Of a DNA stretch of 64,000 nt, positions 2,916 through 60,626 are shown one piece after another; position 1 is the first letter of the stretch, and every line of letters begins with the position of its first letter. Source of the DNA: Escherichia phage vB_EcoM-RPN226; sequence record OL770073.2. One strand, 5' to 3'. Both the position numbers and the translations under genes were made by a program. The notes under the pieces were generated by a model. It made no database searches. It was given only the letters and a program-made list of their open reading frames with translations, and had not been told where the DNA came from.

Positions 2916-4427
2916 ATGTCTATTGATATTTATAAAGATAAAAATGGCAAGCTGAACAAGAACTGGAAAATGATACACGCTAAACACCCTGAAATCATTG
3001 ATAGTATTGAGTTGCCATATGATGACCCTAAAACAAAAATCGTTTTAGCGATAAACGGAATGACAGAACTTAGCCGCTGTAAAAACTGTGGTGTTGAGAT
3101 GGATATCTCGAAGCTTGGCTCAGATTATTGCTCTAGAAAGTGTTCAGCTAACTCATCTGAAGTTAAGAGGAAAAAGCTTGATAGCATTAATCTTGAAGAA
3201 CGCGGCAAAAAAATTTCTGAATCTCTTAAAGGTAAATCCACTGCAAAATCTTGGAATACTCGTAAGAAAAAGTATGGTGAAAAAGGATTTAGCCAAACTG
3301 GGATAGAAGCTATCAAAAATAACGGAGTTAATTCTAGCGAAAAACGAATTAATACAATGATTACCCGTTATGGAGTTAAAAACCCGTTTCAACTGGAAAG
3401 CGTGATTGAAACTATATCCAAGGTTCAAACAGAGAATAACACCGCACGAAACCATTTACCCGGTTGGCTGTATGATAAGAATAAATTTAAACAAGTTTAT
3501 TCTAAATCTGGAATTAGAGGAATAATCAAAAAATCTGGCTGCGGTGCAAATTTAGCATATGTTTTATCACGTGAATATCAGCTCCGAGATATGAAAACTA
3601 CTTCGGCCGAAACAGAGATTCTGAGTTTTATTAATGAACTCGGGTTTGAAGCAGAGAAGACGCGCCAAGTGATAGCACCTTTTGAGCTGGATATCTATGT
3701 CCCAGAGAAGAAGCTTGCTATTGAGTTCAACGGTCTTTACTGGCACAGTTCAGGCTCAAAGGAACAGGACATTATTAAGAATAACCATCTCAAAAAGACT
3801 GAGATGTGTGAAGCACAAGGAATTCATCTGCTGCATATCTTCGAGAATGAATGGGTAGATGATACTAAACGCGAGATATGGAAATCGGTTATTAGAAATA
3901 AACTTGGTAAATCTGAACGCATCTATGCGCGTAAATGTAAGGTACATCCGGTTGATTCTAGAGCTGCTAAAGAGTTTTGTGAGTATAACCATTTACAGGG
4001 TCATGTCCCATTCCAGAATGCCCTGGGTTTATTCTATAACGATGAATTAGTACAGTTGGTCACATTTGGCAGAGGCCGCTATCAAGGTAAAACCGAATTA
4101 CTTCGTATGTGCACAAAACGTGGATACAGCGTAGTAGGTGGTGCTTCAAAACTTCTCAAGGATAAGAAATTTATTTCTTATGCTAACCGTAGATGGTCTA
4201 TGGGTAATGTGTATCAACAGATCGGTATGAAACAGATTGGTGTTACTCCGCCGTGTGACTATTATTTTGATAAAGGCCGTCTGTATCACAGGTCAAGTTA
4301 TATGAAACACTTATTAAAAGACAAGCTCAAAGTTTTTGATGAAAATCTTAGCGCGATAGAAAACTGTTATAACAACAAAATAAGAAGAATTTGGGATTGT
4401 GGTAATATAGTTTATGAATCCCAATAA
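2916..4427 (+). CDS. putative homing-endonuclease-like protein with Vsr/PD-(D/E)xK-type nuclease core and N-terminal Cys cluster
   Basis: 503-aa ORF antisense to the late cluster between genes 23 and 24; strong RBS taggagga; CKNCG...CSRKC zinc-finger-like cluster; FELDIYVPEKKLAIEFNGLYWHS resembles Vsr/DUF559 motif; no GIY-YIG motif. Confidence 0.55.
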   Translation: MSIDIYKDKNGKLNKNWKMIHAKHPEIIDSIELPYDDPKTKIVLAINGMTELSRCKNCGVEMDISKLGSDYCSRKCSANSSEVKRKKLDSINLEERGKKISESLKGKSTAKSWNTRKKKYGEKGFSQTGIEAIKNNGVNSSEKRINTMITRYGVKNPFQLESVIETISKVQTENNTARNHLPGWLYDKNKFKQVYSKSGIRGIIKKSGCGANLAYVLSREYQLRDMKTTSAETEILSFINELGFEAEKTRQVIAPFELDIYVPEKKLAIEFNGLYWHSSGSKEQDIIKNNHLKKTEMCEAQGIHLLHIFENEWVDDTKREIWKSVIRNKLGKSERIYARKCKVHPVDSRAAKEFCEYNHLQGHVPFQNALGLFYNDELVQLVTFGRGRYQGKTELLRMCTKRGYSVVGGASKLLKDKKFISYANRRWSMGNVYQQIGMKQIGVTPPCDYYFDKGRLYHRSSYMKHLLKDKLKVFDENLSAIENCYNNKIRRIWDCGNIVYESQ

Positions 4428-4477: not shown

Positions 4478-6043
4478 TTAGATACCTTTCACGTATACAC
4501 GGCGGAAGTAAGCATTTTTACCAAGGCTATTCAGAATAGAAGGCATACCGCTCTGGATGCGAGAAGCCGGAGCCTGAGCAGCGGATTCTGCAAATGGGTT
4601 GATACCGATACCGTAACGAGTTTTGAAACCCATAACAGGCTGGAAATTTTTCGGATCAGAACCACGCAGCGGAGTCAGAGCTACATATGGAGCATAGTAA
4701 ATACCAGCATCCATTTCGTTCGGACCTTTATAACCTACAGTGAAATAATCCTGTTTAGCATACTGGTCGATATATACACGGTATTTACCACCCAGAACAC
4801 CAGCAAATACTGACTTGGTAGTATCAGTGTTAAAGCCGGTAGCCAGACCCTGTGCAGCATAAGAAATGCCAGTATCAACTGAAGCCAGAACGTTAACTAC
4901 GTTACGGGAAGCGATAATGAAGTTACCTTCACCACGACCGGTCTGACGAGCAATTTCAACTGCTTCTTTGTCAATCTGGAACAACAGAGCTTTAAAGGAT
5001 TCACCCGCCCAGCGAGCACCACGAATATCAATCGGATCCTGGAAGTCAAATACACCAGCTTTAGAACCCGGAGTCAGGGTCATACCAGATTTACCAACCT
5101 GAGCTGAGTAGTTAATCCAATCAACAACTTCACGGTTGATTTCCAGCATGATTTCGGTAGCCAGAATACCAGACAGTTCAGCATCAGCATCCATACCGTG
5201 AACAGCGCGGAGGTCTTGTGCTAATTCGATAGAGTAAGCAGCTTTCAGCTGACGAGATTTAGCTTCGATAACTTGTTTATCGATACGGAAGCCCATTTCA
5301 TTCCATGGGTTATCGGTAGAACCGTTGAAACTTTCCTGGAGTTCAGCGATAGAAGTAGCCATACCTTCAGCGATTTCTACCAGTGCACCAGCTTCCATTT
5401 GTTTCTTAATTTCAGCATCTAATTTAGCTGCGTCAGTTGCACTTGAACTAATTGTTACTTGAGCAGAAGCTTGCAGATACACAGTACCAGTGTCCTGGAA
5501 GAAGTGAGTATAGATATCACCTGCTGTGGTTTGTGTGCTAGCAGCCAGAGCTGCGAATTTCTTAGCAGCACCCTGACCAGAGAACATTGCATCTGGACCA
5601 TACATTGGGTGGAATGCTTCTTTAGCACCAGAAGCGACCGGGTCTTTACCATATACTGCGCGCAGTGCGAATACCTGGCCAGTCGGGCTGTTCATCGGCT
5701 GAACACCGCAAATATCGAAAGCAATCAGGTTAGGAATAGCACGACGTACCATACCCATAACAGCTGGGCCAATCTGAGTTACTGCGCCAGAAGTCTGACC
5801 TGCAGCGATGTTGGTAGCATTGTAACCGTGGTCACCGCCGATTTCAGCTTCTGTTAAGAAAGAACCAAATGCCTGAGCAATTTTTTCGTCTTTGTACTCT
5901 GGAGCTGTCTGGAAATCTTTTTCCTGGTTTTCAAAGATTTTAGCGATAATCGCTTGTTTGCTATTAGCAATTTCCGGTAAACCTTCACCTTCCAGTAATG
6001 GCTTCCATTTGTTCAAAAGTTCAGCTTTAGTTTTGATAGTCAT
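4478..6043 (-). CDS. 23: major capsid protein gp23
   Basis: 521 aa, MTIKTKAELLNKWKPLLEGEG... matches remembered T4 gp23 almost residue for residue. Confidence 0.95.
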   Translation of the reverse strand: MTIKTKAELLNKWKPLLEGEGLPEIANSKQAIIAKIFENQEKDFQTAPEYKDEKIAQAFGSFLTEAEIGGDHGYNATNIAAGQTSGAVTQIGPAVMGMVRRAIPNLIAFDICGVQPMNSPTGQVFALRAVYGKDPVASGAKEAFHPMYGPDAMFSGQGAAKKFAALAASTQTTAGDIYTHFFQDTGTVYLQASAQVTISSSATDAAKLDAEIKKQMEAGALVEIAEGMATSIAELQESFNGSTDNPWNEMGFRIDKQVIEAKSRQLKAAYSIELAQDLRAVHGMDADAELSGILATEIMLEINREVVDWINYSAQVGKSGMTLTPGSKAGVFDFQDPIDIRGARWAGESFKALLFQIDKEAVEIARQTGRGEGNFIIASRNVVNVLASVDTGISYAAQGLATGFNTDTTKSVFAGVLGGKYRVYIDQYAKQDYFTVGYKGPNEMDAGIYYAPYVALTPLRGSDPKNFQPVMGFKTRYGIGINPFAESAAQAPASRIQSGMPSILNSLGKNAYFRRVYVKGI

Positions 6044-6061
6044 TTGTGTTAACCTTTAAAA

Positions 6062-6871
6062 TTAGAAACGAGATGCGACTTTCGCATATACACTTACAAT
6101 ATCTTCTGCACCAGGTGCAGCTTTATCTTCTACAGCTTCAGTGACGAAATTCAGTCCGGCTGCTTCAGTATCAGGAGTATTTATACCCTCAGTAATAGTG
6201 CTTTCATCTTTATTAGACTTCTTCACCATTTCTACGATGGCACTCAATTTATTTGAGAATTCATCTGAATAATCCATACCTTCGACCAGAGCAGAGACTT
6301 TTTCTTTTTGAGACTCAGTCAGATCTTTAGTACTTTCGCTCAATGCCACTTCACGCTGCACATAATTGATATATGCGTCACGCTTATTGAGTTCTTCGAA
6401 CAGACGAGCTGATTCTTCTTTATGTTCTTGCAGCTCTTCTTCCATTTCAGCCACAACATCAACTGATTCTTCTGGAACAACAACGTTGTGTTCAACAAAG
6501 AGCTCTTTTAATCCACCAAGCATGGATTCAAACAGTTCGGCTTTGATGCCTTTATCAACTGCTAATTTATTTTCAGCGAGCCATTCTTTCGCAAGATGGT
6601 CAATGAATTTAGAAGCTTGCTCAGCGATTTTCTTCTCAGCTTTTTCTTCGGCTTCTTCTTTATTTTTTTCTACTTCTTCTTCTGCTTTTTCAGCAATTTT
6701 AGCGATATGAGATTCAGCTAATTTAACGGCGTGCTGCTTGACGGTAGCTTCGAATACAGTGCCGAAAGTTTCTTTTGCTTCCGGAGAAATATTAACTGAT
6801 TCGAAAATACTATCAAGAGCAACGGAAGCATCAATTTTTTGCGCTTCAGCAATCAGTTGTTCTTTAAGCAT
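6062..6871 (-). CDS. 22: prohead scaffolding core protein gp22
   Basis: 269 aa, highly acidic and coiled-coil rich, position between 21 and 23. Confidence 0.85.
   Translation of the reverse strand: MLKEQLIAEAQKIDASVALDSIFESVNISPEAKETFGTVFEATVKQHAVKLAESHIAKIAEKAEEEVEKNKEEAEEKAEKKIAEQASKFIDHLAKEWLAENKLAVDKGIKAELFESMLGGLKELFVEHNVVVPEESVDVVAEMEEELQEHKEESARLFEELNKRDAYINYVQREVALSESTKDLTESQKEKVSALVEGMDYSDEFSNKLSAIVEMVKKSNKDESTITEGINTPDTEAAGLNFVTEAVEDKAAPGAEDIVSVYAKVASRF
6178..6185 (-). promoter_or_regulatory. late promoter (TATAAATA) for gene 23, inside gene 22
   Basis: TATTTATA on plus strand about 135 nt upstream of gene 23 ATG. Confidence 0.55.
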
Positions 6872-6898
6872 TTTGTAGTCCTGTTGTTTAGATAATAA

Positions 6899-53681: not shown

Positions 53682-53882
53682 ATGCTGACACACGAACAGT
53701 TTGAAAAAATCATTAAATTAGCACGTGATGTTGAAATAGATTCATATCAATTAGCAGTTGAGCATTGTGAAGGATATTCATATGAAGGTATAGCAGCAGC
53801 TAAAAGAGATTTGGATGAATCTAAAGCTAAGTTAGTTCAATATCTTGAAATGATTAGGTGGAATAATGAAAACTGTAGTTAA
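53682..53882 (+). CDS. hypothetical protein
   Basis: 66-aa ORF, similar helical composition to previous small ORF. Confidence 0.4.
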   Translation: MLTHEQFEKIIKLARDVEIDSYQLAVEHCEGYSYEGIAAAKRDLDESKAKLVQYLEMIRWNNENCS

Positions 53883-54876
53883 GTCTTATTTTGGTAGTCA
53901 TCTTTATGGAACTTCTACTCCAGAATCTGATGTAGATTTTAAAGAAATCTTTGTTCCTCCTGCTCGTGATATTCTTATTGGAAATGTTAAAGAGCATATG
54001 AGCAAAAACACTAACAACACATCATCTAAAAACACTAAAGATGATATTGACCATGAACTATACAGTCTTAAGTATTTCTTTAAATTAGCAGCAGATGGTG
54101 AAACCGTAGCATTGGATATGCTCCACACTCCACCTGAACTGGTAGTTAAATCTGATTTGCCTGATGTATGGAAGTTTATTCAAGACAATCGTTCTCGTTT
54201 TTATACGACTAACATGAAATCCTATTTAGGATATGTCCGCAAGCAAGCTTCTAAATACGGTGTCAAGGGTTCTCGTTTGGCCGCATTACGTGATGTATTG
54301 AAAGTAGTTAATCAAATCCCTGACCAGTGGGTCGACTATCAAGAAGGAATCCCTGATAGACTTCGTCGCACTAAAGTTGAAGATATTAAGCATCGTCTTC
54401 CAGAAAACGAGTTCTGCGAATGGGTATTCTATAATCATGAGAAAACAGGCCCGCAAACGTTCTATACTGTGTTGAGTCGTAAATATCAGACTACACTTTC
54501 TCTTATTGAGCTTAAGCAGTCTTTGAATAAACTTGATGCTGAATATGGTGAACGTGCTCGTAAAGCTGAAGCGAATGAGGGTATTGACTGGAAAGCTCTG
54601 AGTCATGCTTGTCGTGGTGGACTCCAACTATTGGAAATTTACAAAACCGGTGACTTAGTTTATCCACTTCAAGACGCTCCATTTATTCTCGACGTGAAGC
54701 TGGGTAAGCATCCATTTAAAACTGTTCAAGAGTTTTTGGAAGATGTGGTCGATCAAGTAGAAGCAGCATCCATTGAAGCTTCTAAGAACGGTATGCAACA
54801 AAAAGTAGACATGGGTTTCTGGGATGACTTCCTTGAGAGGGTTTATCTTGAAAACCATCGAAGTTATTATAAATGA
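53866..54876 (+). CDS. Pol-beta-superfamily nucleotidyltransferase-like protein
   Basis: N-terminal signature GSHLYGTSTPESDVDFKEIFV (GS, spacer, DxD); 336 aa; followed by strong terminator. Confidence 0.55.
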   Translation: MKTVVKSYFGSHLYGTSTPESDVDFKEIFVPPARDILIGNVKEHMSKNTNNTSSKNTKDDIDHELYSLKYFFKLAADGETVALDMLHTPPELVVKSDLPDVWKFIQDNRSRFYTTNMKSYLGYVRKQASKYGVKGSRLAALRDVLKVVNQIPDQWVDYQEGIPDRLRRTKVEDIKHRLPENEFCEWVFYNHEKTGPQTFYTVLSRKYQTTLSLIELKQSLNKLDAEYGERARKAEANEGIDWKALSHACRGGLQLLEIYKTGDLVYPLQDAPFILDVKLGKHPFKTVQEFLEDVVDQVEAASIEASKNGMQQKVDMGFWDDFLERVYLENHRSYYK

Positions 54877-54878
54877 TA

Positions 54879-54907
54879 GGGAGCCTTCGGGCTCCCTTTT
54901 TTATTTC
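54879..54907 (+). terminator. rho-independent terminator after nucleotidyltransferase gene
   Basis: GGGAGCC-TTCG-GGCTCCC hairpin followed by TTTTTTATTT. Confidence 0.75.
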
Positions 54908-54926
54908 AAAAATTTTTCACAAAACT

Positions 54927-54965
54927 GTTTACAAGCATAAAGCTTTATGGTACTATACAACTATC
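54927..54965 (+). promoter_or_regulatory. early promoter module for AAA+ ATPase gene
   Basis: TTTTCACAAAAC upstream element, GTTTAC 54927-54932, GGTACTATACAACTATCAACT. Confidence 0.6.
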
Positions 54966-54990
54966 AACTGATACGGATTTGGAGAATAAA

Positions 54991-55959
54991 ATGAAAACTG
55001 TAACTATCAATAAGGGTATCTACTTCGGTAAAGAAATCTCTGGAACTTTTGAGCTCTTAGGCGAATGGTTCCCAGATAATGCTCCGGTAGATGCACAAGG
55101 AGATGGTAAAGTTTTTGTTGAAATTGACGGTAAACGTCGCGGTGTTTGGGTTTACAAATCAGATATTTCATATGATGGTGTAAAAGTTGAAGAAGTTAAA
55201 GAATCGTATGAAGATATGAAAACCCGCATTAATAAAAGATTTAACGTTATGGGAATGATGACGAACGGTATTATTAATGGAAATATTCGTTCATTAATTA
55301 TCTCTGGCGCAGCAGGTATTGGTAAAACGTATTCTTTAGATAAAGCTTTAAATAAAGCAAATGATATTGGATACATTGAATATAAAAGCATTAATGGTAA
55401 AATCTCTGGTATTGGTCTTTATGAGCAGCTTTGGAATAATCGTGAAGAGAATTCTGTCCTTTTGATTGATGATGTGGATGTTTTCTCTGATATGGATATT
55501 CTTAATCTTCTAAAAGCCGCTCTGGACACCGGAGAGACCCGTAAAGTCTGCTGGAGCACTGCGTCTTCTTACTTAGAAGAAAAAGGCATTGAGCGTGAGT
55601 TTGAATTTAAAGGAACGATTGTTTTTATCACAAACGTTGACATTGACCGCGAATTAGACCGTGGTACTAAACTTGCTCCACACTTACAAGCATTAGTGTC
55701 CCGCTCAGTTTATTTGGATTTGGGTGTTCATACTAATGAAGAAATTATGGTCAGGGTTGAAGATGTTATTCTTTCAACTGACATGATGCAAAAGCGCGGT
55801 CTTTCTGATGAAGAAACTTATAAAGCATTATCATGGATGAAAGTTAATGTTAATCGTTTACGCAATGTTTCACTGCGTACTGCTCTTTATCTTGCTGACT
55901 TTATTATGACCGACAAAAACGGTTGGGAAGAAATTGCTGAGGTTACTCTTCTGAAATAA
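54991..55959 (+). CDS. AAA+ ATPase
   Basis: Walker A GAAGIGKT, Walker B VLLIDDVD; start ATG 54991 after GGAG. Confidence 0.6.
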   Translation: MKTVTINKGIYFGKEISGTFELLGEWFPDNAPVDAQGDGKVFVEIDGKRRGVWVYKSDISYDGVKVEEVKESYEDMKTRINKRFNVMGMMTNGIINGNIRSLIISGAAGIGKTYSLDKALNKANDIGYIEYKSINGKISGIGLYEQLWNNREENSVLLIDDVDVFSDMDILNLLKAALDTGETRKVCWSTASSYLEEKGIEREFEFKGTIVFITNVDIDRELDRGTKLAPHLQALVSRSVYLDLGVHTNEEIMVRVEDVILSTDMMQKRGLSDEETYKALSWMKVNVNRLRNVSLRTALYLADFIMTDKNGWEEIAEVTLLK

Positions 55960-56365: not shown

Positions 56366-56405
56366 GTTTACAAGACTGTTCCTCTGTGGTACTATACAAC
56401 TATCA
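56366..56405 (+). promoter_or_regulatory. early promoter module
   Basis: GTTTAC 56366-56371, GGTACTATACAACTATCAACT. Confidence 0.6.
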
Positions 56406-56423: not shown

Positions 56424-56951
56424 ATGAATGCTAAAGATATTTTCAACTTGGTAAATTACAACGATGGTAAATTTAAATCTGAAGCACAAAGCAAGTTCTT
56501 TAATGACATCTCAATCGGAGGTGAAATCACAGTTGATGGAGGACAAATTTACAAATCCCGTTGGAATTGGATCGTTATTATTGATGAGATTGGTATTGTC
56601 GAAATTTACAAAAATACGAATAAAAATCGTACATTACACTGGTCTCGTGATACTAACGAACAGTACAAAAAGGATAAAGCATCTAAATTATCTCGTGTAA
56701 CTCAAGAAGATATTGAGTTCATCAAGAAAGATATTTTAATGTATGATAACTTAATTGCTGAAGAGCAAGCTGTTATTGATAAATTTGATGAGATTAAAGC
56801 TTCTCGTGAAATTCCTGATTTTATGAAAGAATCAGTAAATGAACGATACACTCTCATTTCAGAGCGTATTGAAACTTACAAAAAGCAAAGAGCTGAACGC
56901 CAAAATACTCTTCGGAAGTTTGAAGAACGGTTAAAGACGGTACTCGCATAA
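56424..56951 (+). CDS. hypothetical protein with C-terminal coiled coil
   Basis: start ATG 56424 after GGAGGAA, downstream of early promoter. Confidence 0.45.
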   Translation: MNAKDIFNLVNYNDGKFKSEAQSKFFNDISIGGEITVDGGQIYKSRWNWIVIIDEIGIVEIYKNTNKNRTLHWSRDTNEQYKKDKASKLSRVTQEDIEFIKKDILMYDNLIAEEQAVIDKFDEIKASREIPDFMKESVNERYTLISERIETYKKQRAERQNTLRKFEERLKTVLA

Positions 56952-57006
56952 CCGCTTTATACCAAGGATGGTATAATGGTTCTAAGCCCTTTTAATTGAG
57001 ATTATT

Positions 57007-57414
57007 ATGAAACAGTTGATAATTAAAAGATTGAATTTATTGATATGTTGTTTATGTGTAGTAGTTGCATACGGTTATTACGCAATTAATGATTATATGC
57101 ATTATAAAGATTATGATGTTACTGTAGTTAATACCATTACAGGAACACAAGGAAAAGGGTCTAGTTTATCGTTTATTGCCGTATATGAACTTAAAGACGG
57201 TTATAGATTTAGTGAATATATTTCCCCAGAGATGTATTCTTCAATAGAAAAAGGTGATAATATTACTGTAAGTTTACGTCCTTTCGACGTAAAACAGACA
57301 CTGTTTGATAATATTGTTTGGTTCTTTGGGATGGTATTAGTTCAATCCGTGTGTGGCGCTTATGTAGTCTGTTCAATCATATTCTGTGTATTTAGTAAAA
57401 TTGAAATTGAGTGA
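57007..57414 (+). CDS. membrane protein
   Basis: N-terminal and C-terminal hydrophobic helices. Confidence 0.4.
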   Translation: MKQLIIKRLNLLICCLCVVVAYGYYAINDYMHYKDYDVTVVNTITGTQGKGSSLSFIAVYELKDGYRFSEYISPEMYSSIEKGDNITVSLRPFDVKQTLFDNIVWFFGMVLVQSVCGAYVVCSIIFCVFSKIEIE

Positions 57415-57421
57415 GGAAAAT

Positions 57422-58312
57422 ATGTCAGTAGTAATTAATAATGTTAATGCAGTAATTAAATCTTTAGTTAATAAAAAAATGATGAATGAATGGACTGTAT
57501 TTCGCCGTGGAGAGCCAGATAAATTTTTTCATAGATTTAACTCAACTCTGAATTTGAATGTTATTGACAGAGATGTTCATGCCGAAATTTTAGATAAGTT
57601 TAAAGTTGATATTGGATTTGGATTAGAAAAACATCTACAGCGAACAAATGGGTCTGGAATGAGTTTATCTAATCGCATTATGAAAGCCCTTAATAAAATT
57701 GGAGCATTGTCTCGTATTAACGCGAGTGAAATCCTTCGTAATTACAATAAAGGATATGACCTTTATGGTCGACTAATGCCGAAGTTATCATTTGACCAAA
57801 TGATTGCGGATTTGTGGGAAAATCAACGCCGATTATTAGCATTAGGCGCTCGATTAGCTAAAGGTCTAGATAAACAAATGATTTTTAAGACCAATAATAC
57901 AGAAGACCTTAAATGCTTTAAATTTAGTATTCGTGGCGATGATTATTACATCAGAGCCCACTCTACAGATTATGTTAATATGGGGCATCATCTCTGTTTA
58001 GCTTTTGAAGTTTTAAAAGAAGCTGGAACACTAGAATATTCATCTGGTGCTAAATGCCCTATTGGTTCAAGTTGTATTTTAATTTATCGACCGGATGAAT
58101 CCAGTTCAACTAAATTGCCTACAAAACCTGTGCTAGTTCGTAGTAACGAAAAACATTCTGAACAAATTGATTATTTTAATAAGCAGATTGAAGAGCTGAA
58201 TATTTCTATTCAACAATATGATGATGAAATTTTCAGACTATCTGAATTGAGTAGTAAAGCTAAATCTGAGCGTGAAAAGTTAATTAAAATTGTTGATTTA
58301 CTTAAATCTTAA
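57422..58312 (+). CDS. hypothetical protein with C-terminal coiled coil
   Basis: start MSVVINN after GAGTGAGGAAAA; C-terminal heptad segment. Confidence 0.45.
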   Translation: MSVVINNVNAVIKSLVNKKMMNEWTVFRRGEPDKFFHRFNSTLNLNVIDRDVHAEILDKFKVDIGFGLEKHLQRTNGSGMSLSNRIMKALNKIGALSRINASEILRNYNKGYDLYGRLMPKLSFDQMIADLWENQRRLLALGARLAKGLDKQMIFKTNNTEDLKCFKFSIRGDDYYIRAHSTDYVNMGHHLCLAFEVLKEAGTLEYSSGAKCPIGSSCILIYRPDESSSTKLPTKPVLVRSNEKHSEQIDYFNKQIEELNISIQQYDDEIFRLSELSSKAKSEREKLIKIVDLLKS

Positions 58313-58320
58313 GGAACACC

Positions 58321-59349
58321 ATGAAAACTCGTTCTCAAATTGAAGATATGGTTCGTAATGCCAGTTATACTCGTGATGTTATGACATTTTTGTGTGAAAA
58401 TAATTTAGACCCTGATAAAGTTAATCGTGTTATTCATCACTTTAAGTATACGAATAGCAGTGAATGGTTACGTCATTTTAGTAAAGCGGGGTATATTACA
58501 CAAATGACTGCTCGTGAGCAACTCACCGATTTCTGTAAAACCATTGATTATAAAAATCCTCTATTTGTTCAAGGCGTTGGTCAAAGTAAGGTCGATTTAT
58601 CATCTGGATTTTTCAATCCAAATCATTATCGTATTGAATGGAGATTTATTGCTCTGTTCCGTAGACAATTAAAGCAAATTTTGTCGACGGCTAGTCGATT
58701 AAAAGGTTCTGACATTAACTTAAAGAACCTGAAATTTGATGGTTATACTCTTCAGATGGAAGTAAGACCATTAAAAGAAAATAATAGAACTGCACGAATT
58801 AGCTTTAAACCTAATACAAAAAATTCTCTTTCAATTTGCGAATGCCTTAAATCACAGTTGACAGAAGCATTTAAGTATATGGATGTTGTTGCCGCTGTTC
58901 AGTCTAAGATTTTACCTCGTTTTGAGCGAAATTGGGAACATACAACAACGTATGAACTTGATATGATCGTTTCATTTAAATACGATTTTTTGAGAAAGGA
59001 CGAAGTCACGCAAGAGAAAAAGCAGGAAGTGCAAGATAACTTAAATTTAAATTTATCCAATTACTCATCAAACGATCCTAAATTTTGGATGTATAGCTCA
59101 AGCAATATAGATGCATGTAAACTTAATAAAGTGAGTTTTCTTCCTACTGAAAATTCAAATTTTAAACCTGTAGAAAAATGGCACGCTGACGCGATTGAGA
59201 AGTCTCTTAAGGCAGTAGATGATGAACTCGTTAAAGCGACCAATGAAGTGCTAGAAGCTGAAAAGGTGTTAGAACAAGCTCAGTCAAGGGTTAAAAATCT
59301 GACAAAGCAACGTTCTAAACTGAACAATGCACTAAATGCACTGAACTAG
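58321..59349 (+). CDS. hypothetical protein with C-terminal coiled coil
   Basis: 342 aa, RBS taaggaacacc, C-terminal coiled coil. Confidence 0.45.
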   Translation: MKTRSQIEDMVRNASYTRDVMTFLCENNLDPDKVNRVIHHFKYTNSSEWLRHFSKAGYITQMTAREQLTDFCKTIDYKNPLFVQGVGQSKVDLSSGFFNPNHYRIEWRFIALFRRQLKQILSTASRLKGSDINLKNLKFDGYTLQMEVRPLKENNRTARISFKPNTKNSLSICECLKSQLTEAFKYMDVVAAVQSKILPRFERNWEHTTTYELDMIVSFKYDFLRKDEVTQEKKQEVQDNLNLNLSNYSSNDPKFWMYSSSNIDACKLNKVSFLPTENSNFKPVEKWHADAIEKSLKAVDDELVKATNEVLEAEKVLEQAQSRVKNLTKQRSKLNNALNALN

Positions 59350-59378
59350 TTTACTTTGCCACAAGGATGTGGTATAAT
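59349..59378 (+). promoter_or_regulatory. early promoter
   Basis: GTTTAC 59349-59354, TGgTATAAT with TATAAT at 59373-59378. Confidence 0.65.
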
Positions 59379-59406
59379 GTTCTTACTTTCTACTGAGGAG
59401 ATTAAT

Positions 59407-60333
59407 ATGACTCGTAAACATTATATTGATTATTTTGACAGTCTTATTACTAAACACCACAATTATCAGATCGGACACAGAGCAGTAATTAATAATATTC
59501 TTCGTGATTTCCTTCAATATGTTGGCCAGGAAAATCATATCTGTAAAGATACTCAAAACGCTTATTCTCATTCGTTAGGCAATTTGCTTGAATGGTTTAA
59601 ACGTTCTCGTATGTTATCTTCTACTGTAGCTCGCGATAACATTAAAAACTTTATGAAGCCGAGATTCATTAAAACTGCGACATCTATAACCGATTTGGTT
59701 GAATTTACTATTATTAACGATGTTAAAAAGACCCATTTAGCTGATTGGTTATCTACCATTCCTGAAACTAAATTTGCTGATAAATTCGCTTGTCAATTCA
59801 ATGACCAAGTGAATATGCTTTTTAAGCATGCTCGTAAACTATTTACCGCGGGCGATGACCGTACAAATACAGTTCATGTTAAGGACTGGGTTATTGCTGA
59901 TGAAGTAACACACAAACCAGGTGGTTCATCAGTATTAATTAATATCCAGGTTCCTTATTATTACTCACGTAATCTCGGCACCATGACAGCTAGAGAAATT
60001 AATAAGCATAACAAAACTATTCGTTCGTTGTCTTATAAACTCTGCACGATGGTGGAGATGATGGACGTAGTGGAAATGTATGATGAAACCGAAGATAATG
60101 ATTCAATGCTGTACAGTTCACGCATTCTAATTAAACTGAAGAACCCTAATACGTATAAGCCAGTTGTAAAAGAACCTAAAGTAGAAAAGGTTGATAACTT
60201 GAGCGAAGAACGTGAATATCTCAATGCTCGTTTGATTGAAGTTGAAGCCCAAATTGCAGAACACACCAAATTGTTAAAAGCTCTTAATGCAAAAGCAAAT
60301 GGTTTACGTAATGCTATTGAGGTACTGAAATGA
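59407..60333 (+). CDS. hypothetical protein with C-terminal coiled coil
   Basis: start ATG 59407 after GAGGAG, downstream of TATAAT early promoter. Confidence 0.45.
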   Translation: MTRKHYIDYFDSLITKHHNYQIGHRAVINNILRDFLQYVGQENHICKDTQNAYSHSLGNLLEWFKRSRMLSSTVARDNIKNFMKPRFIKTATSITDLVEFTIINDVKKTHLADWLSTIPETKFADKFACQFNDQVNMLFKHARKLFTAGDDRTNTVHVKDWVIADEVTHKPGGSSVLINIQVPYYYSRNLGTMTAREINKHNKTIRSLSYKLCTMVEMMDVVEMYDETEDNDSMLYSSRILIKLKNPNTYKPVVKEPKVEKVDNLSEEREYLNARLIEVEAQIAEHTKLLKALNAKANGLRNAIEVLK

Positions 60334-60626
60334 AAAAGCGCTTATTAGAAGATATTGCCGAAGCTTCAGATTTTCCTGAATGGACTCCATGCGCTGGGTT
60401 TGATAAAGGGCTGCTAGTTACCGACGATTTAGACTTTAAACCTCCAGCATGGGATGCCATTATGGCTATGGTTAGTCGTCGTGAGCAATCTTCTAAGAAT
60501 GTTCCAAACTGTCCAAAGTGTGGTACTGAACAGGTACAATTAGTTCATTGGCAGACTAGTAATCTTCGTTATAAATGTCGTCATTGTAAACACCGATTTG
60601 ACCGAGAAGAAAATGACCAAGCGTAA
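60330..60626 (+). CDS. zinc-ribbon protein
   Basis: CPKCG...CRHCKHRF four-Cys zinc ribbon; ATGA overlap with upstream gene. Confidence 0.45.

What the first reader, a model, noticed from the sequence alone, without database searches (positions are those of the whole stretch)
56424..60333. Run of early genes each ending in a short coiled coil
Four consecutive products (56424-56951, 57422-58312, 58321-59349, 59407-60333) have unrelated-looking globular N-terminal regions but each ends in a 30-45 residue heptad-rich segment. Two have their own early promoter. This looks like a family sharing a C-terminal oligomerisation or targeting module. None has a recognisable catalytic motif.
Basis: seen in the sequence. 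Interest (0 to 1): 0.5.

Follow-up and report, generated by a model that had tools for sequence, protein, structure and literature searches.

The report
Coiled-coil-tailed early phage paralog family
This is the nrdC.8–nrdC.3 accessory early-gene block of a T4-like phage: the heptad tails are real, but three of the four proteins are diverged copies of one gene family whose one studied member lets T4 overcome a bacterial defence protein.

Summary
All four products end in a Pro-free, heptad-phased helix of about 38-56 residues. They rank 2-5 of 72 window ORFs on a C-terminal heptad score; fibritin, a known coiled coil, ranks first.

The window comes from a Tequatrovirus, and the genes are orthologues of T4 nrdC.8, nrdC.6, nrdC.5 and nrdC.3. 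nrdC.7, a membrane protein, lies between the first two, and nrdC.4 is absent.

The bodies of nrdC.6, nrdC.5 and nrdC.3 (and T4 nrdC.4) are not unrelated:
- Profile comparison links them (hhalign 95.9% and 86% through nrdC.3/4; controls 4.4% or less).
- AlphaFold models of nrdC.3 and nrdC.6 show the same order of elements: helical bundle, alpha/beta core, disordered linker, long C-terminal helix.
- Both models hit the same uncharacterised ~310-335-residue proteins of distant T4-like phages.

So the coil was inherited with the whole protein. It is not a module grafted onto unrelated domains. nrdC.8 belongs to a separate, strongly conserved family with its own helical tail.

T4 nrdC.5 is published as counteracting the Dsr1 sirtuin defence. 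My best reading, which is inferred, is a tandem array of oligomeric binders of host defence proteins, with diversifying bodies and a conserved coiled-coil tail. Moderately interesting; not a new kind of system.

The parts
56366..56395 (+). T4-type early promoter-like site upstream of nrdC.8 (GTTTAC, 17 nt, TGgTACTAT)
   Evidence: Consensus scan and direct reading. Function not tested.
56424..56951 (+). nrdC.8 orthologue (175 aa). It has a small conserved N-terminal domain (about residues 1-95) and a helical C-terminal half. It belongs to a family separate from the other three.
   Evidence: 100% identical to Shfl2 nrdC.8. PHROG 2274, E 6.6e-111. Orthologues on metagenomic contigs carry PF26901 Phage_T4_Y05D. 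An exhaustive phmmer search gave 37 representatives that mostly match residues 1-95. dN/dS is 0-0.04.
56817..56948 (+). nrdC.8 C-terminal heptad segment (residues 132-175), preceded by a second helical stretch (about 95-128) and Pro131. It could be an intramolecular helical hairpin instead of an intermolecular coil.
   Evidence: Heptad score 0.47, z 3.0. Fourier rank 8 of 72. Only sub-threshold PDB sequence hits, to prefoldin beta, lamin and SNAP25. No structure model was made.
57007..57414 (+). nrdC.7 orthologue, a hydrophobic 135-aa product annotated in T4 as a predicted membrane protein. It lies between the first and second genes of the finding and is not part of the coiled-coil set.
   Evidence: C-terminal heptad score 0.15, z -1.0. 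It sits elsewhere in RB69.
57422..58312 (+). nrdC.6 orthologue (296 aa), a member of the nrdC.3/4/5/6 superfamily.
   Evidence: 97.6% identical to Shfl2 nrdC.6. Homologues carry PF26899. hhalign to nrdC.3/4: probability 86%, E 5e-6. AlphaFold2 mean pLDDT 77.5. BFVD neighbours shared with nrdC.3.
58148..58309 (+). nrdC.6 C-terminal helix (residues 243-296), seven heptads. It is the best-conserved part of the protein between phage genera and includes invariant polar residues (D267 D268 E269 R272 K281 E283 R284 K295).
   Evidence: Identity 58% in the helix against 35% in the body versus RB69.
58321..59349 (+). nrdC.5 orthologue (342 aa; Pfam DUF7235). The T4 orthologue is the published counter-defence gene against Dsr1.
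   Evidence: Pfam PF23882, E 3.9e-121. 94% identical to T4 nrdC.5. hhalign to nrdC.3/4: probability 95.9%, E 5e-9. Function from PMC9391042.
59176..59346 (+). nrdC.5 C-terminal heptad helix (residues 286-342), about eight heptads and the strongest 3.5-residue periodicity in the window.
   Evidence: The end motif KLNNALNALN is kept as KLFNAMNALKS in Mosigvirus NHEP29, although the body is about 30% identical.
59349..59378 (+). T4-type early promoter-like site (GTTTAC, 17 nt, TGgTATAAT) with an internal stem-loop, resembling a PeSL element, upstream of nrdC.3.
   Evidence: PeSL elements are described in PMC2839356 and PMC4122927. The resemblance is by inspection only.
59407..60333 (+). nrdC.3 orthologue (308 aa). 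It carries the promoter, ribosome-binding site and first codons that precede nrdC.4 in relatives; nrdC.4 itself is missing from this phage.
   Evidence: 95% identical to Shfl2 nrdC.3. Homologues carry PF26897. Deletion junction read. AlphaFold2 mean pLDDT 78, pTM 0.69.
60196..60330 (+). nrdC.3 C-terminal helix (residues 264-308), about six heptads.
   Evidence: AlphaFold2 helix 264-307. Heptad z 2.3. Identity 78% in the helix against 57% in the body versus the T4 allele.

Best explanation
The region is the nrdC.8 to nrdC.3 stretch of the variable, dispensable early-gene block of a Tequatrovirus.

nrdC.6, nrdC.5 and nrdC.3 (with nrdC.4 in T4) are tandem, strongly diverged paralogues of one family that is spread across T4-like phages. 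The common plan is an N-terminal helical bundle, an alpha/beta core, a flexible linker of about 20-70 residues, and a C-terminal amphipathic helix of 45-56 residues with a continuous heptad register.

Proposed mechanism (inferred):
- The tail makes each protein a homo-oligomer.
- The variable body binds a host protein.
- For nrdC.5 the target is the Dsr1 sirtuin defence or its activation step.
- The other paralogues neutralise other host factors, most likely other defence proteins.
- Oligomerisation gives avidity for targets that are themselves oligomers.

nrdC.8 is a separate, strongly conserved small protein with its own helical tail. Its resemblance to the others is limited to that feature.

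Shown here: gene identities, heptad tails, paralogy, shared architecture, distribution and evolutionary rates. Taken from the literature: the anti-Dsr1 phenotype of T4 nrdC.5. Inferred: oligomerisation, direct binding and an anti-defence role for the paralogues.
For: Identity.

Tails: and the AlphaFold2 helices.

Paralogy:
- nrdC.3 and nrdC.4 align end to end.
- hhalign gives 95.9% for nrdC.5 versus nrdC.3/4 and 86% for nrdC.6 versus nrdC.3/4; controls reach 4.4% at most.
- The aligned positions are mutually consistent in all three pairings.
- The motifs 'F.K.g.LS...ar..L..F.K' and 'A.RL..G' are shared.
- The two models have the same order of secondary-structure elements.
- Both models hit the same BFVD proteins from Pectobacterium PM2, Acinetobacter fHyAci03, Klebsiella Mineola and Serratia CBH8 phages.

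Distribution: ORFs of 292-330 aa lying near nrdC.10 (four of the five between nrdC.10 and nrdC) in Acj61, Klebsiella 311F and fHe-Yen9-01 all have C-terminal heptad scores of 0.49-0.57, while their neighbours score 0.11-0.20. Two of them link to the family by hhalign, at 91.6% and at 53.6%/37%.

Accessory, fast-evolving character:
- nrdC.4 is absent here. ACG-C40 has a deletion across the block, and P0056 is an nrdC.5/nrdC.3 fusion.
- dN/dS is 0.08-0.32 for nrdC.5 and nrdC.3, against 0-0.10 for nrdC.8, nrdC.10 and nrdC.
- Orthologues between genera are only about 23-35% identical for nrdC.5 and nrdC.6, against 78-85% for nrdC.8 and nrdC.10.
- The tail is as conserved as the body or more so in all seven comparisons of the three paralogues.

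Function: expression of T4 nrdC.5 restores plating of a deletion phage on cells carrying dsr1 (PMC9391042).
Against: - No oligomer was modelled or measured. The helix could bind another partner.
- Direct binding of nrdC.5 to Dsr1 has not been shown, and Dsr1 was still described as poorly characterised in a 2026 paper.
- Nothing is known about the function of nrdC.3, nrdC.4 or nrdC.6.
- The direct nrdC.5 to nrdC.6 profile match is weak (probability 12%, E 2e-3), so that link rests on nrdC.3/4 as a hub and on structure.
- No structure was predicted for nrdC.5 or nrdC.8.
- All dN/dS values are below 1, so positive selection is not demonstrated.
- The heptad score uses my own weights, not a published predictor.
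Confidence: 0.55

Rival explanations
1. One reading: unrelated globular domains that each acquired the same mobile C-terminal oligomerisation or targeting module by domain shuffling.
For: Pairwise BLASTP between the bodies is insignificant or marginal. nrdC.8 has a heptad tail on a body with no detectable relation to the others.
Against: Collinear homology through body, linker and tail for nrdC.3, nrdC.4, nrdC.5 and nrdC.6. Same element order in the two models and shared structural neighbours. The nrdC.8 tail is no more similar to the other tails than reversed-sequence controls are.
Confidence: 0.08
2. The C-terminal helix is mainly a docking peptide, not a self-association domain. It binds one common partner (a host hub protein or another phage protein), or it lets the co-expressed paralogues form mixed complexes.
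For: In nrdC.6 many polar, non-core helix positions are invariant over 33 sequences that are 32-84% identical to the window protein. The helix is more conserved than the body between genera. The tail ends share an L..A(L/I/V)..(L/I)(K/N) pattern, seen by inspection.
Against: The conservation pattern is the classic coiled-coil one, with hydrophobic, low-entropy a/d positions. No partner is known. The shared end pattern may simply reflect common ancestry.
Confidence: 0.22
3. The paralogues other than nrdC.5 are host-takeover or housekeeping early proteins unrelated to defence, and the anti-Dsr1 activity is a speciality of nrdC.5 alone.
For: Only nrdC.5 has a phenotype in the literature. nrdC.6 has a low dN/dS of 0.05-0.14.
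Against: The genes are lost, fused and replaced by divergent alleles among close relatives. This fits strain-specific accessory roles. The block lies in the dispensable region that was deleted in evolved T4 clones.
Confidence: 0.2
4. The heptad tails are a by-product of the A+T-rich, Lys/Glu/Leu/Ile/Asn-rich coding of this phage, or they are amphipathic helices that pack back on the body or on a membrane.
For: nrdC.3 and nrdC.8 are only moderately periodic, at Fourier ranks 6 and 8 of 72. The scoring scheme is home-made.
Against: Composition-matched shuffles rarely reach the observed scores. The four rank just behind fibritin among ORFs of the same genome. The register runs without a break to the C-terminus, and a/d hydrophobicity is conserved in homologues as low as 20-30% identical. 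In both models the helix follows a linker with pLDDT below 50. The hydrophobic stripe is two positions in seven, which is narrow for a membrane-binding helix (inference).
Confidence: 0.05

Closest known systems
T4 NrdC.5 (Pfam DUF7235, PF23882), the counter-defence factor against the Dsr1 sirtuin system (Srikant, Guegler and Laub, eLife 2022, PMC9391042)
   Same: The window gene 58321-59349 is its orthologue, at 94% amino-acid identity and in the same position. nrdC.3 and nrdC.6 share its architecture and are remote paralogues.
   Different: The mechanism of NrdC.5 is unpublished in the library searched. Neither the paralogy with nrdC.3, nrdC.4 and nrdC.6 nor the conserved coiled-coil tail was found described there. 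No function is known for the paralogues.
Pfam families PF26897 Phage_T4_Y04OP (nrdC.3 and nrdC.4), PF26899 Phage_T4_Y05B (nrdC.6) and PF26901 Phage_T4_Y05D (nrdC.8)
   Same: The window proteins are plain members of these families.
   Different: These are separate families of unknown function. The evidence here joins PF26897, PF23882 and PF26899 into one superfamily and extends it by structure to T4-like phages of Klebsiella, Acinetobacter, Pectobacterium, Serratia and Yersinia.
DSAD1, the phage protein that inhibits DSR2 by direct binding (from my own knowledge, not tested here)
   Same: It is a small phage protein that counters a defence-associated sirtuin, and so serves as a model for how NrdC.5 could act by stoichiometric binding.
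   Different: No sequence or structure comparison was made. It has a different host range and a different target (DSR2, not DSR1). No homology is claimed.
Phage tail terminator and tail completion proteins (lambda gpU-like fold)
PeSL (promoter-early stem-loop) cassettes of the variable regions of T4-type genomes (PMC2839356, PMC4122927)
   Same: Early promoters with an internal stem-loop flank these genes, and genes come and go between close relatives.
   Different: The loss of nrdC.4 in this window maps to the homologous 5' ends of the two paralogous genes, not to the promoter element itself.

Membership tests
Coiled coil (structural class) | At least four contiguous heptads with hydrophobic a and d positions and polar b, c, e, f, g positions | tested here: met
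   Continuous register over 11-16 a/d positions in all four proteins. In homologues a/d positions are 77-94% hydrophobic against 13-27% elsewhere. Ranks 2-5 of 72 ORFs. Weaker for nrdC.3 and nrdC.8 in the Fourier test.
Coiled coil (structural class) | The segment is an uninterrupted alpha-helix | tested here: met
   No Pro for 44-60 residues. AlphaFold2 helices 264-307 in nrdC.3 and 243-272 plus 278-295 in nrdC.6. Not modelled for nrdC.5 or nrdC.8.
Coiled coil (structural class) | Two or more helices actually wind around each other (oligomer or hairpin) | not testable with these tools
This needs multimer modelling or SEC-MALS/crosslinking.
Coiled coil (structural class) | High probability from an established predictor (COILS, Marcoil, DeepCoil) | not tested
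   No such program or parameter table was available. A home-made score with fibritin as positive control was used instead.
DUF7235 / T4 NrdC.5 | Full-length match above the Pfam gathering threshold | tested here: met
   PF23882: E 3.9e-121, 404.6 bits against a cut-off of 30, covering 1-342.
DUF7235 / T4 NrdC.5 | Counteracts Dsr1-mediated defence | not testable with these tools
   Shown for the T4 protein only (PMC9391042). The window orthologue is 94% identical.
PF26897 Phage_T4_Y04OP (nrdC.3/nrdC.4) | Sequence membership | tested here: met
   The local Pfam copy lacks this model. However, 84 of the 85 homologues found with the nrdC.3/4 profile carry PF26897, at 58-96% identity to the window protein for the nrdC.3 branch.
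PF26899 Phage_T4_Y05B (nrdC.6) | Sequence membership | tested here: met
   All 109 homologues carry PF26899, and the closest are 97% identical.
One superfamily joining nrdC.3/4, nrdC.5 and nrdC.6 | Significant collinear profile-profile similarity above background | tested here: met
   Probability 95.9% (E 5e-9) and 86% (E 5e-6) to the nrdC.3/4 hub. The direct nrdC.5 to nrdC.6 match is only 12% (E 2e-3). The 18 unrelated window ORFs used as controls reach 4.4% at most.
One superfamily joining nrdC.3/4, nrdC.5 and nrdC.6 | Same fold | tested here: inconclusive
   nrdC.3 and nrdC.6 have the same order of elements and the same BFVD neighbours at probability 1.00. No direct superposition tool was available, and nrdC.5 was not modelled.
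One superfamily joining nrdC.3/4, nrdC.5 and nrdC.6 | nrdC.8 also belongs | tested here: not met
   hhalign probability 0.3% or less for full length. Tail-only E-values of 0.02-0.07 are within the range of reversed controls. Its HMM finds no paralogue in the window.
[not shown]
   [not shown]

The most novel reading that the evidence does not exclude
The nrdC.3/4/5/6 superfamily would be a general anti-defence scaffold of T4-like phages across many host genera. A conserved coiled-coil tail oligomerises, or docks onto a common hub, a fast-evolving recognition body, and each paralogue disables a different host immune sensor. A bolder variant takes up the weak resemblance of the alpha/beta core to tail-terminator proteins: the bodies would be early-expressed decoys of a late structural protein that defence sensors recognise.
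Probability: 0.2. Interest if true: 0.7.

Novelty: new member of a known kind. Interest (0 to 1): 0.42.

Why it matters
T4 still has many early genes of unknown function, and how NrdC.5 defeats the Dsr1 sirtuin defence is not known.

If nrdC.3, nrdC.4, nrdC.5 and nrdC.6 are one family with a conserved oligomerising tail and a diversifying body, three consequences follow:
- There is a direct experiment on mechanism: delete the tail or swap the bodies.
- There are three or more ready candidates for new counter-defence genes in the best-studied phage.
- There is a way to find relatives in therapeutic T4-like phages of Klebsiella, Acinetobacter and Yersinia, where host range matters.

The genes and Pfam families are already catalogued, so this is an incremental gain, not a new kind of system.

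Tried and rejected
- Pairwise BLASTP among the window proteins found only nrdC.3 versus nrdC.4, plus a marginal nrdC.3 versus nrdC.6 match.
- Shallow alignments from a few loci gave weak hhalign probabilities. Deeper alignments were needed.
- The search for related loci in viral contigs returned only five close relatives.
- HMM searches of all 333 window ORFs found no further paralogue. They placed nrdC.6 and nrdC.5 only as weak second-best hits.
- Full-length and tail-only profile comparisons found no relation of nrdC.8 to the other three.
- A BFVD hit of the nrdC.3 model to a 175-aa Klebsiella KPV15 protein raised the idea of a structural link to nrdC.8. tblastn with nrdC.8 found no match in any Klebsiella phage, and the match quality was poor (TM 0.17-0.28), so I dropped it.
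- PDB sequence searches gave nothing significant, only sub-threshold coiled-coil proteins.
- NCBIfam hits were far below their cut-offs.
- Literature searches for the gene names and Pfam accessions found only the eLife 2022 phenotype and incidental mentions, including an RNA-seq note on nrdC.8.
- Cluster look-ups of remote homologues returned unnamed metagenomic sequences.

Full report
**What the region is**

The window comes from a T4-like phage of the genus Tequatrovirus. A 4.5-kb query over the finding matches 740 phage records, the best at about 96-97% identity. The annotated regions of Shigella phage Shfl2 and of T4 give the gene names:

| Window coordinates | Gene | Length | Note |
|---|---|---|---|
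| 56424-56951 | nrdC.8 | 175 aa | 100% identical to Shfl2 |
| 57007-57414 | nrdC.7 | 135 aa | hydrophobic; annotated in T4 as a predicted membrane protein |
| 57422-58312 | nrdC.6 | 296 aa | 97.6% identical to Shfl2 |
| 58321-59349 | nrdC.5 | 342 aa | 93% identical to Shfl2 |
| 59407-60333 | nrdC.3 | 308 aa | 95% identical to Shfl2 |

The four products are therefore not strictly consecutive.

nrdC.4, a 333-aa gene that lies between nrdC.5 and nrdC.3 in T4 and Shfl2, is absent from this phage. That explains why most relatives match in two pieces with about 1 kb extra.

Family assignments:
- nrdC.5: DUF7235 (PF23882)
- nrdC.3 and nrdC.4: PF26897
- nrdC.6: PF26899
- nrdC.8: PF26901

All four are families of unknown function. 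No enzyme family is detected by Pfam, NCBIfam or PDB sequence search.

Yes.

No standard coiled-coil predictor was available. I scored 28-residue windows in all seven registers with simple a/d and surface weights.
- On the last 60 residues the four proteins rank 2nd to 5th of the 72 window ORFs of at least 100 aa.
- Rank 1 is a 485-aa ORF that Pfam identifies as fibritin, a known trimeric coiled coil. It serves as a positive control.
- Against 300 shuffles of each tail, z is 3.0 (nrdC.8), 3.3 (nrdC.6), 3.8 (nrdC.5) and 2.3 (nrdC.3).

A Fourier test for 3.5-residue hydrophobic periodicity, which needs no weights, ranks them 1 (nrdC.5), 3 (nrdC.6), 6 (nrdC.3) and 8 (nrdC.8) of 72. nrdC.5 and nrdC.6 are clear cases; nrdC.3 and nrdC.8 are moderate.

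Other support:
- The register runs without a break to the C-terminus over 11-16 a/d positions, about 38-56 residues.
- The tails have no Pro for 44-60 residues.
- Across homologues the a/d positions are 77-94% hydrophobic and have the lowest entropy. Other positions are 13-27% hydrophobic.
- AlphaFold2 models (mean pLDDT 78 and 77.5) give one long terminal helix in nrdC.3 (264-307) and in nrdC.6 (243-272 plus 278-295). Each follows a linker with pLDDT below 50.

**The bodies are not unrelated**

*Sequence.* BLASTP already links nrdC.3 and nrdC.4: 25% identity over 276 residues. They align from the shared start MTR..YI..F to the shared end L..A...(L/I)K.

With non-redundant alignments from three database searches plus divergent members from metagenomic contigs and other genera, hhalign gives:

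| Comparison | Probability | E-value | Aligned columns |
|---|---|---|---|
| nrdC.5 vs nrdC.3/4 | 95.9% | 5e-9 | 141 |
| nrdC.6 vs nrdC.3/4 | 86% | 5e-6 | 118 |
| nrdC.5 vs nrdC.6 | 12% | 2e-3 | 65 |

- An earlier run aligned nrdC.6 and nrdC.3/4 over 229 columns, right to the last residue.
- The aligned positions agree across all three pairings.
- Two motifs recur: F.K.g.LS...ar..L..F.K and A.RL..G.
- Eighteen other window ORFs of 200-450 aa scored against the same profiles reach 4.4% at most.

*Structure.* The two models have the same order of elements: five N-terminal helices, a long helix, a beta-hairpin, a helix, a beta-hairpin, a disordered linker and the terminal helix. nrdC.3 has one extra three-stranded insertion.

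Foldseek against predicted viral structures returns, for both models at probability 1.00, the same uncharacterised 309-335-aa proteins of T4-like phages of Pectobacterium (PM2), Acinetobacter (fHyAci03) and Klebsiella (Mineola). Serratia CBH8 appears in both lists more weakly.

*Other genera.* I looked in the block around nrdC.10 in three such genomes.
- The 304- and 330-aa proteins of Acj61, the 324-aa protein of Klebsiella 311F, and the 313- and 292-aa proteins of fHe-Yen9-01 all have C-terminal heptad scores of 0.49-0.57. All but the 313-aa one, which lies just upstream of nrdC.10, sit between nrdC.10 and nrdC.
- Their neighbours score 0.11-0.20.
- The Klebsiella protein matches the nrdC.3/4 profile at 91.6%.
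- The 292-aa Yersinia protein matches both nrdC.3/4 (53.6%) and nrdC.6 (37%).

The coiled-coil tail is therefore an ancestral, collinear part of one protein family that is widespread in T4-like phages. It is not a module grafted onto unrelated domains.

**nrdC.8 is different**
- It shows no profile similarity to the others, in full length or in the tail alone. Its tail comparisons are no better than reversed-sequence controls.
- It is nearly invariant within the genus and 83-85% identical in Mosigvirus, with dN/dS of 0-0.04.
- An exhaustive phmmer search of 1.84 billion representatives finds 37 relatives of 150-240 aa. They conserve the N-terminal domain (KS..L..NNG.FKSEKQ..F) and carry variable helical tails.
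- Its helical half is split by Pro131, so an intramolecular hairpin is as likely as an intermolecular coil. I could not model it.

**Evolutionary behaviour**

The three paralogues behave as accessory, fast-changing genes.
- nrdC.4 is missing here. The junction lies in the homologous first codons of nrdC.4 and nrdC.3, so the window's nrdC.3 carries nrdC.4's promoter, ribosome-binding site and MTR start.
- ACG-C40 has lost most of nrdC.5 through most of nrdC.3.
- One database protein is an nrdC.5/nrdC.3 fusion.
- nrdC.3 occurs as two alleles only about 60% identical within the genus.
- Between Tequatrovirus and Mosigvirus, nrdC.5 and nrdC.6 are about 23-35% identical, while nrdC.8 and nrdC.10 are 78-85% identical.
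- dN/dS is 0.08-0.32 for nrdC.5 and nrdC.3, 0.05-0.14 for nrdC.6, and 0-0.10 for nrdC.8, nrdC.10 and nrdC. All values are below 1, so these are real genes under purifying selection, relaxed in two of them.
- In all seven comparisons the tail is at least as conserved as the body. Examples are 58% against 35% for nrdC.6 and 78% against 57% for nrdC.3.
- In nrdC.6 several polar helix positions are invariant.

**Function**

The only experimental datum found is for T4 nrdC.5. An evolved T4 clone with compensatory deletions could not plate on ECOR17 or on MG1655 carrying ECOR17 dsr1, and expressing nrdC.5 restored plating (PMC9391042). A 2026 paper still calls DSR1 poorly characterised. No paper in the library mentions the Pfam accessions or gives a function for the other genes.

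**Best explanation**

This is a tandem array of diverged paralogues. Each has a variable binding body tethered by a flexible linker to a conserved coiled-coil tail, and each is made early to neutralise host factors. nrdC.5 acts on the Dsr1 pathway; the others probably act on other strain-specific defences.

Oligomerisation, direct binding and the anti-defence role of the paralogues are inferences. The main alternative is that the tail docks onto a common partner or mixes the paralogues into hetero-complexes.

**Verdict**

The genes and families are already catalogued, and one member already has a published phenotype. The addition here is the superfamily link, the conserved architecture and its wide distribution, which give testable candidates for new counter-defence genes. 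Interest is moderate.

Noticed in passing
window 59330-59420, compared with L001 6328-6418 and 7385-7472: nrdC.4 is absent from this phage. The sequence upstream of the window's nrdC.3 (promoter, ribosome-binding site, ATGACTCGTAA) is the one that precedes nrdC.4 in Shfl2, whose own nrdC.3 starts MKTRK. The deletion junction therefore lies in the homologous first codons of the two paralogues.
   Followed up: yes
window 59349-59378 and 56958-56978: The early promoter before nrdC.3 has an internal stem-loop (CCACAAGGATGTGG) between its -35 and -10 elements. A similar TACCAAGGATGGTA next to TATAAT lies before nrdC.7. Both resemble the PeSL cassettes described for the variable regions of T4-type genomes (PMC2839356, PMC4122927).
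   Followed up: partly
L009 (RB69, AY303349) 5976-6878 and the following bases: The deposited RB69 nrdC.5 is frameshifted near its 3' end. The coiled-coil C-terminus (...KLFNAMNALKS*) is encoded in another frame, and it is intact in the close relative NHEP29 (L011 5991-6938). This is either a sequencing error or a pseudogene.
   Followed up: partly
L008 (ACG-C40) 5805-6216; protein P0056: ACG-C40 has a deletion running from about codon 71 of nrdC.5 to the last 72 codons of nrdC.3. P0056, from a 167-kb contig, is an in-frame fusion of the nrdC.5 middle region to the nrdC.3 C-terminal half. The block is a hot spot for deletions between paralogues.
   Followed up: partly
window 59407-60626 (nrdC.3 and nrdC.2): Both genes exist as very divergent alleles within Tequatrovirus: about 60% (nrdC.3) and 64-69% (nrdC.2) amino-acid identity to T4, with dS near 1. 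The flanking genes are 95-100% identical. This points to allele replacement by recombination.
   Followed up: partly
window 53866-55959 (nrdC.11 and nrdC.10): An RlaP-type nucleotidyltransferase lies next to a P-loop protein with weak AAA/STAND-like matches. nrdC.10 is conserved far beyond the coiled-coil family: 1311 phage records, including Vibrio and Aeromonas phages and jumbo phages of Escherichia and Agrobacterium.
   Followed up: no
L015 7133-7348 and L016 5696-5911: Divergent metagenomic relatives keep the order nrdC.8, (nrdC.7,) nrdC.6, nrdC.5, nrdC.4-like. They carry an extra 71-aa ORF between nrdC.6 and nrdC.5 that is absent from the window.
   Followed up: no
window 2916-4427 (+): This 503-aa ORF has a high C-terminal heptad score and a sub-threshold Pfam match to a restriction-endonuclease-like domain (REase_MTES_1575, 26.8 bits against a cut-off of 38.2).
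   Followed up: no
[not shown]
   Followed up: partly
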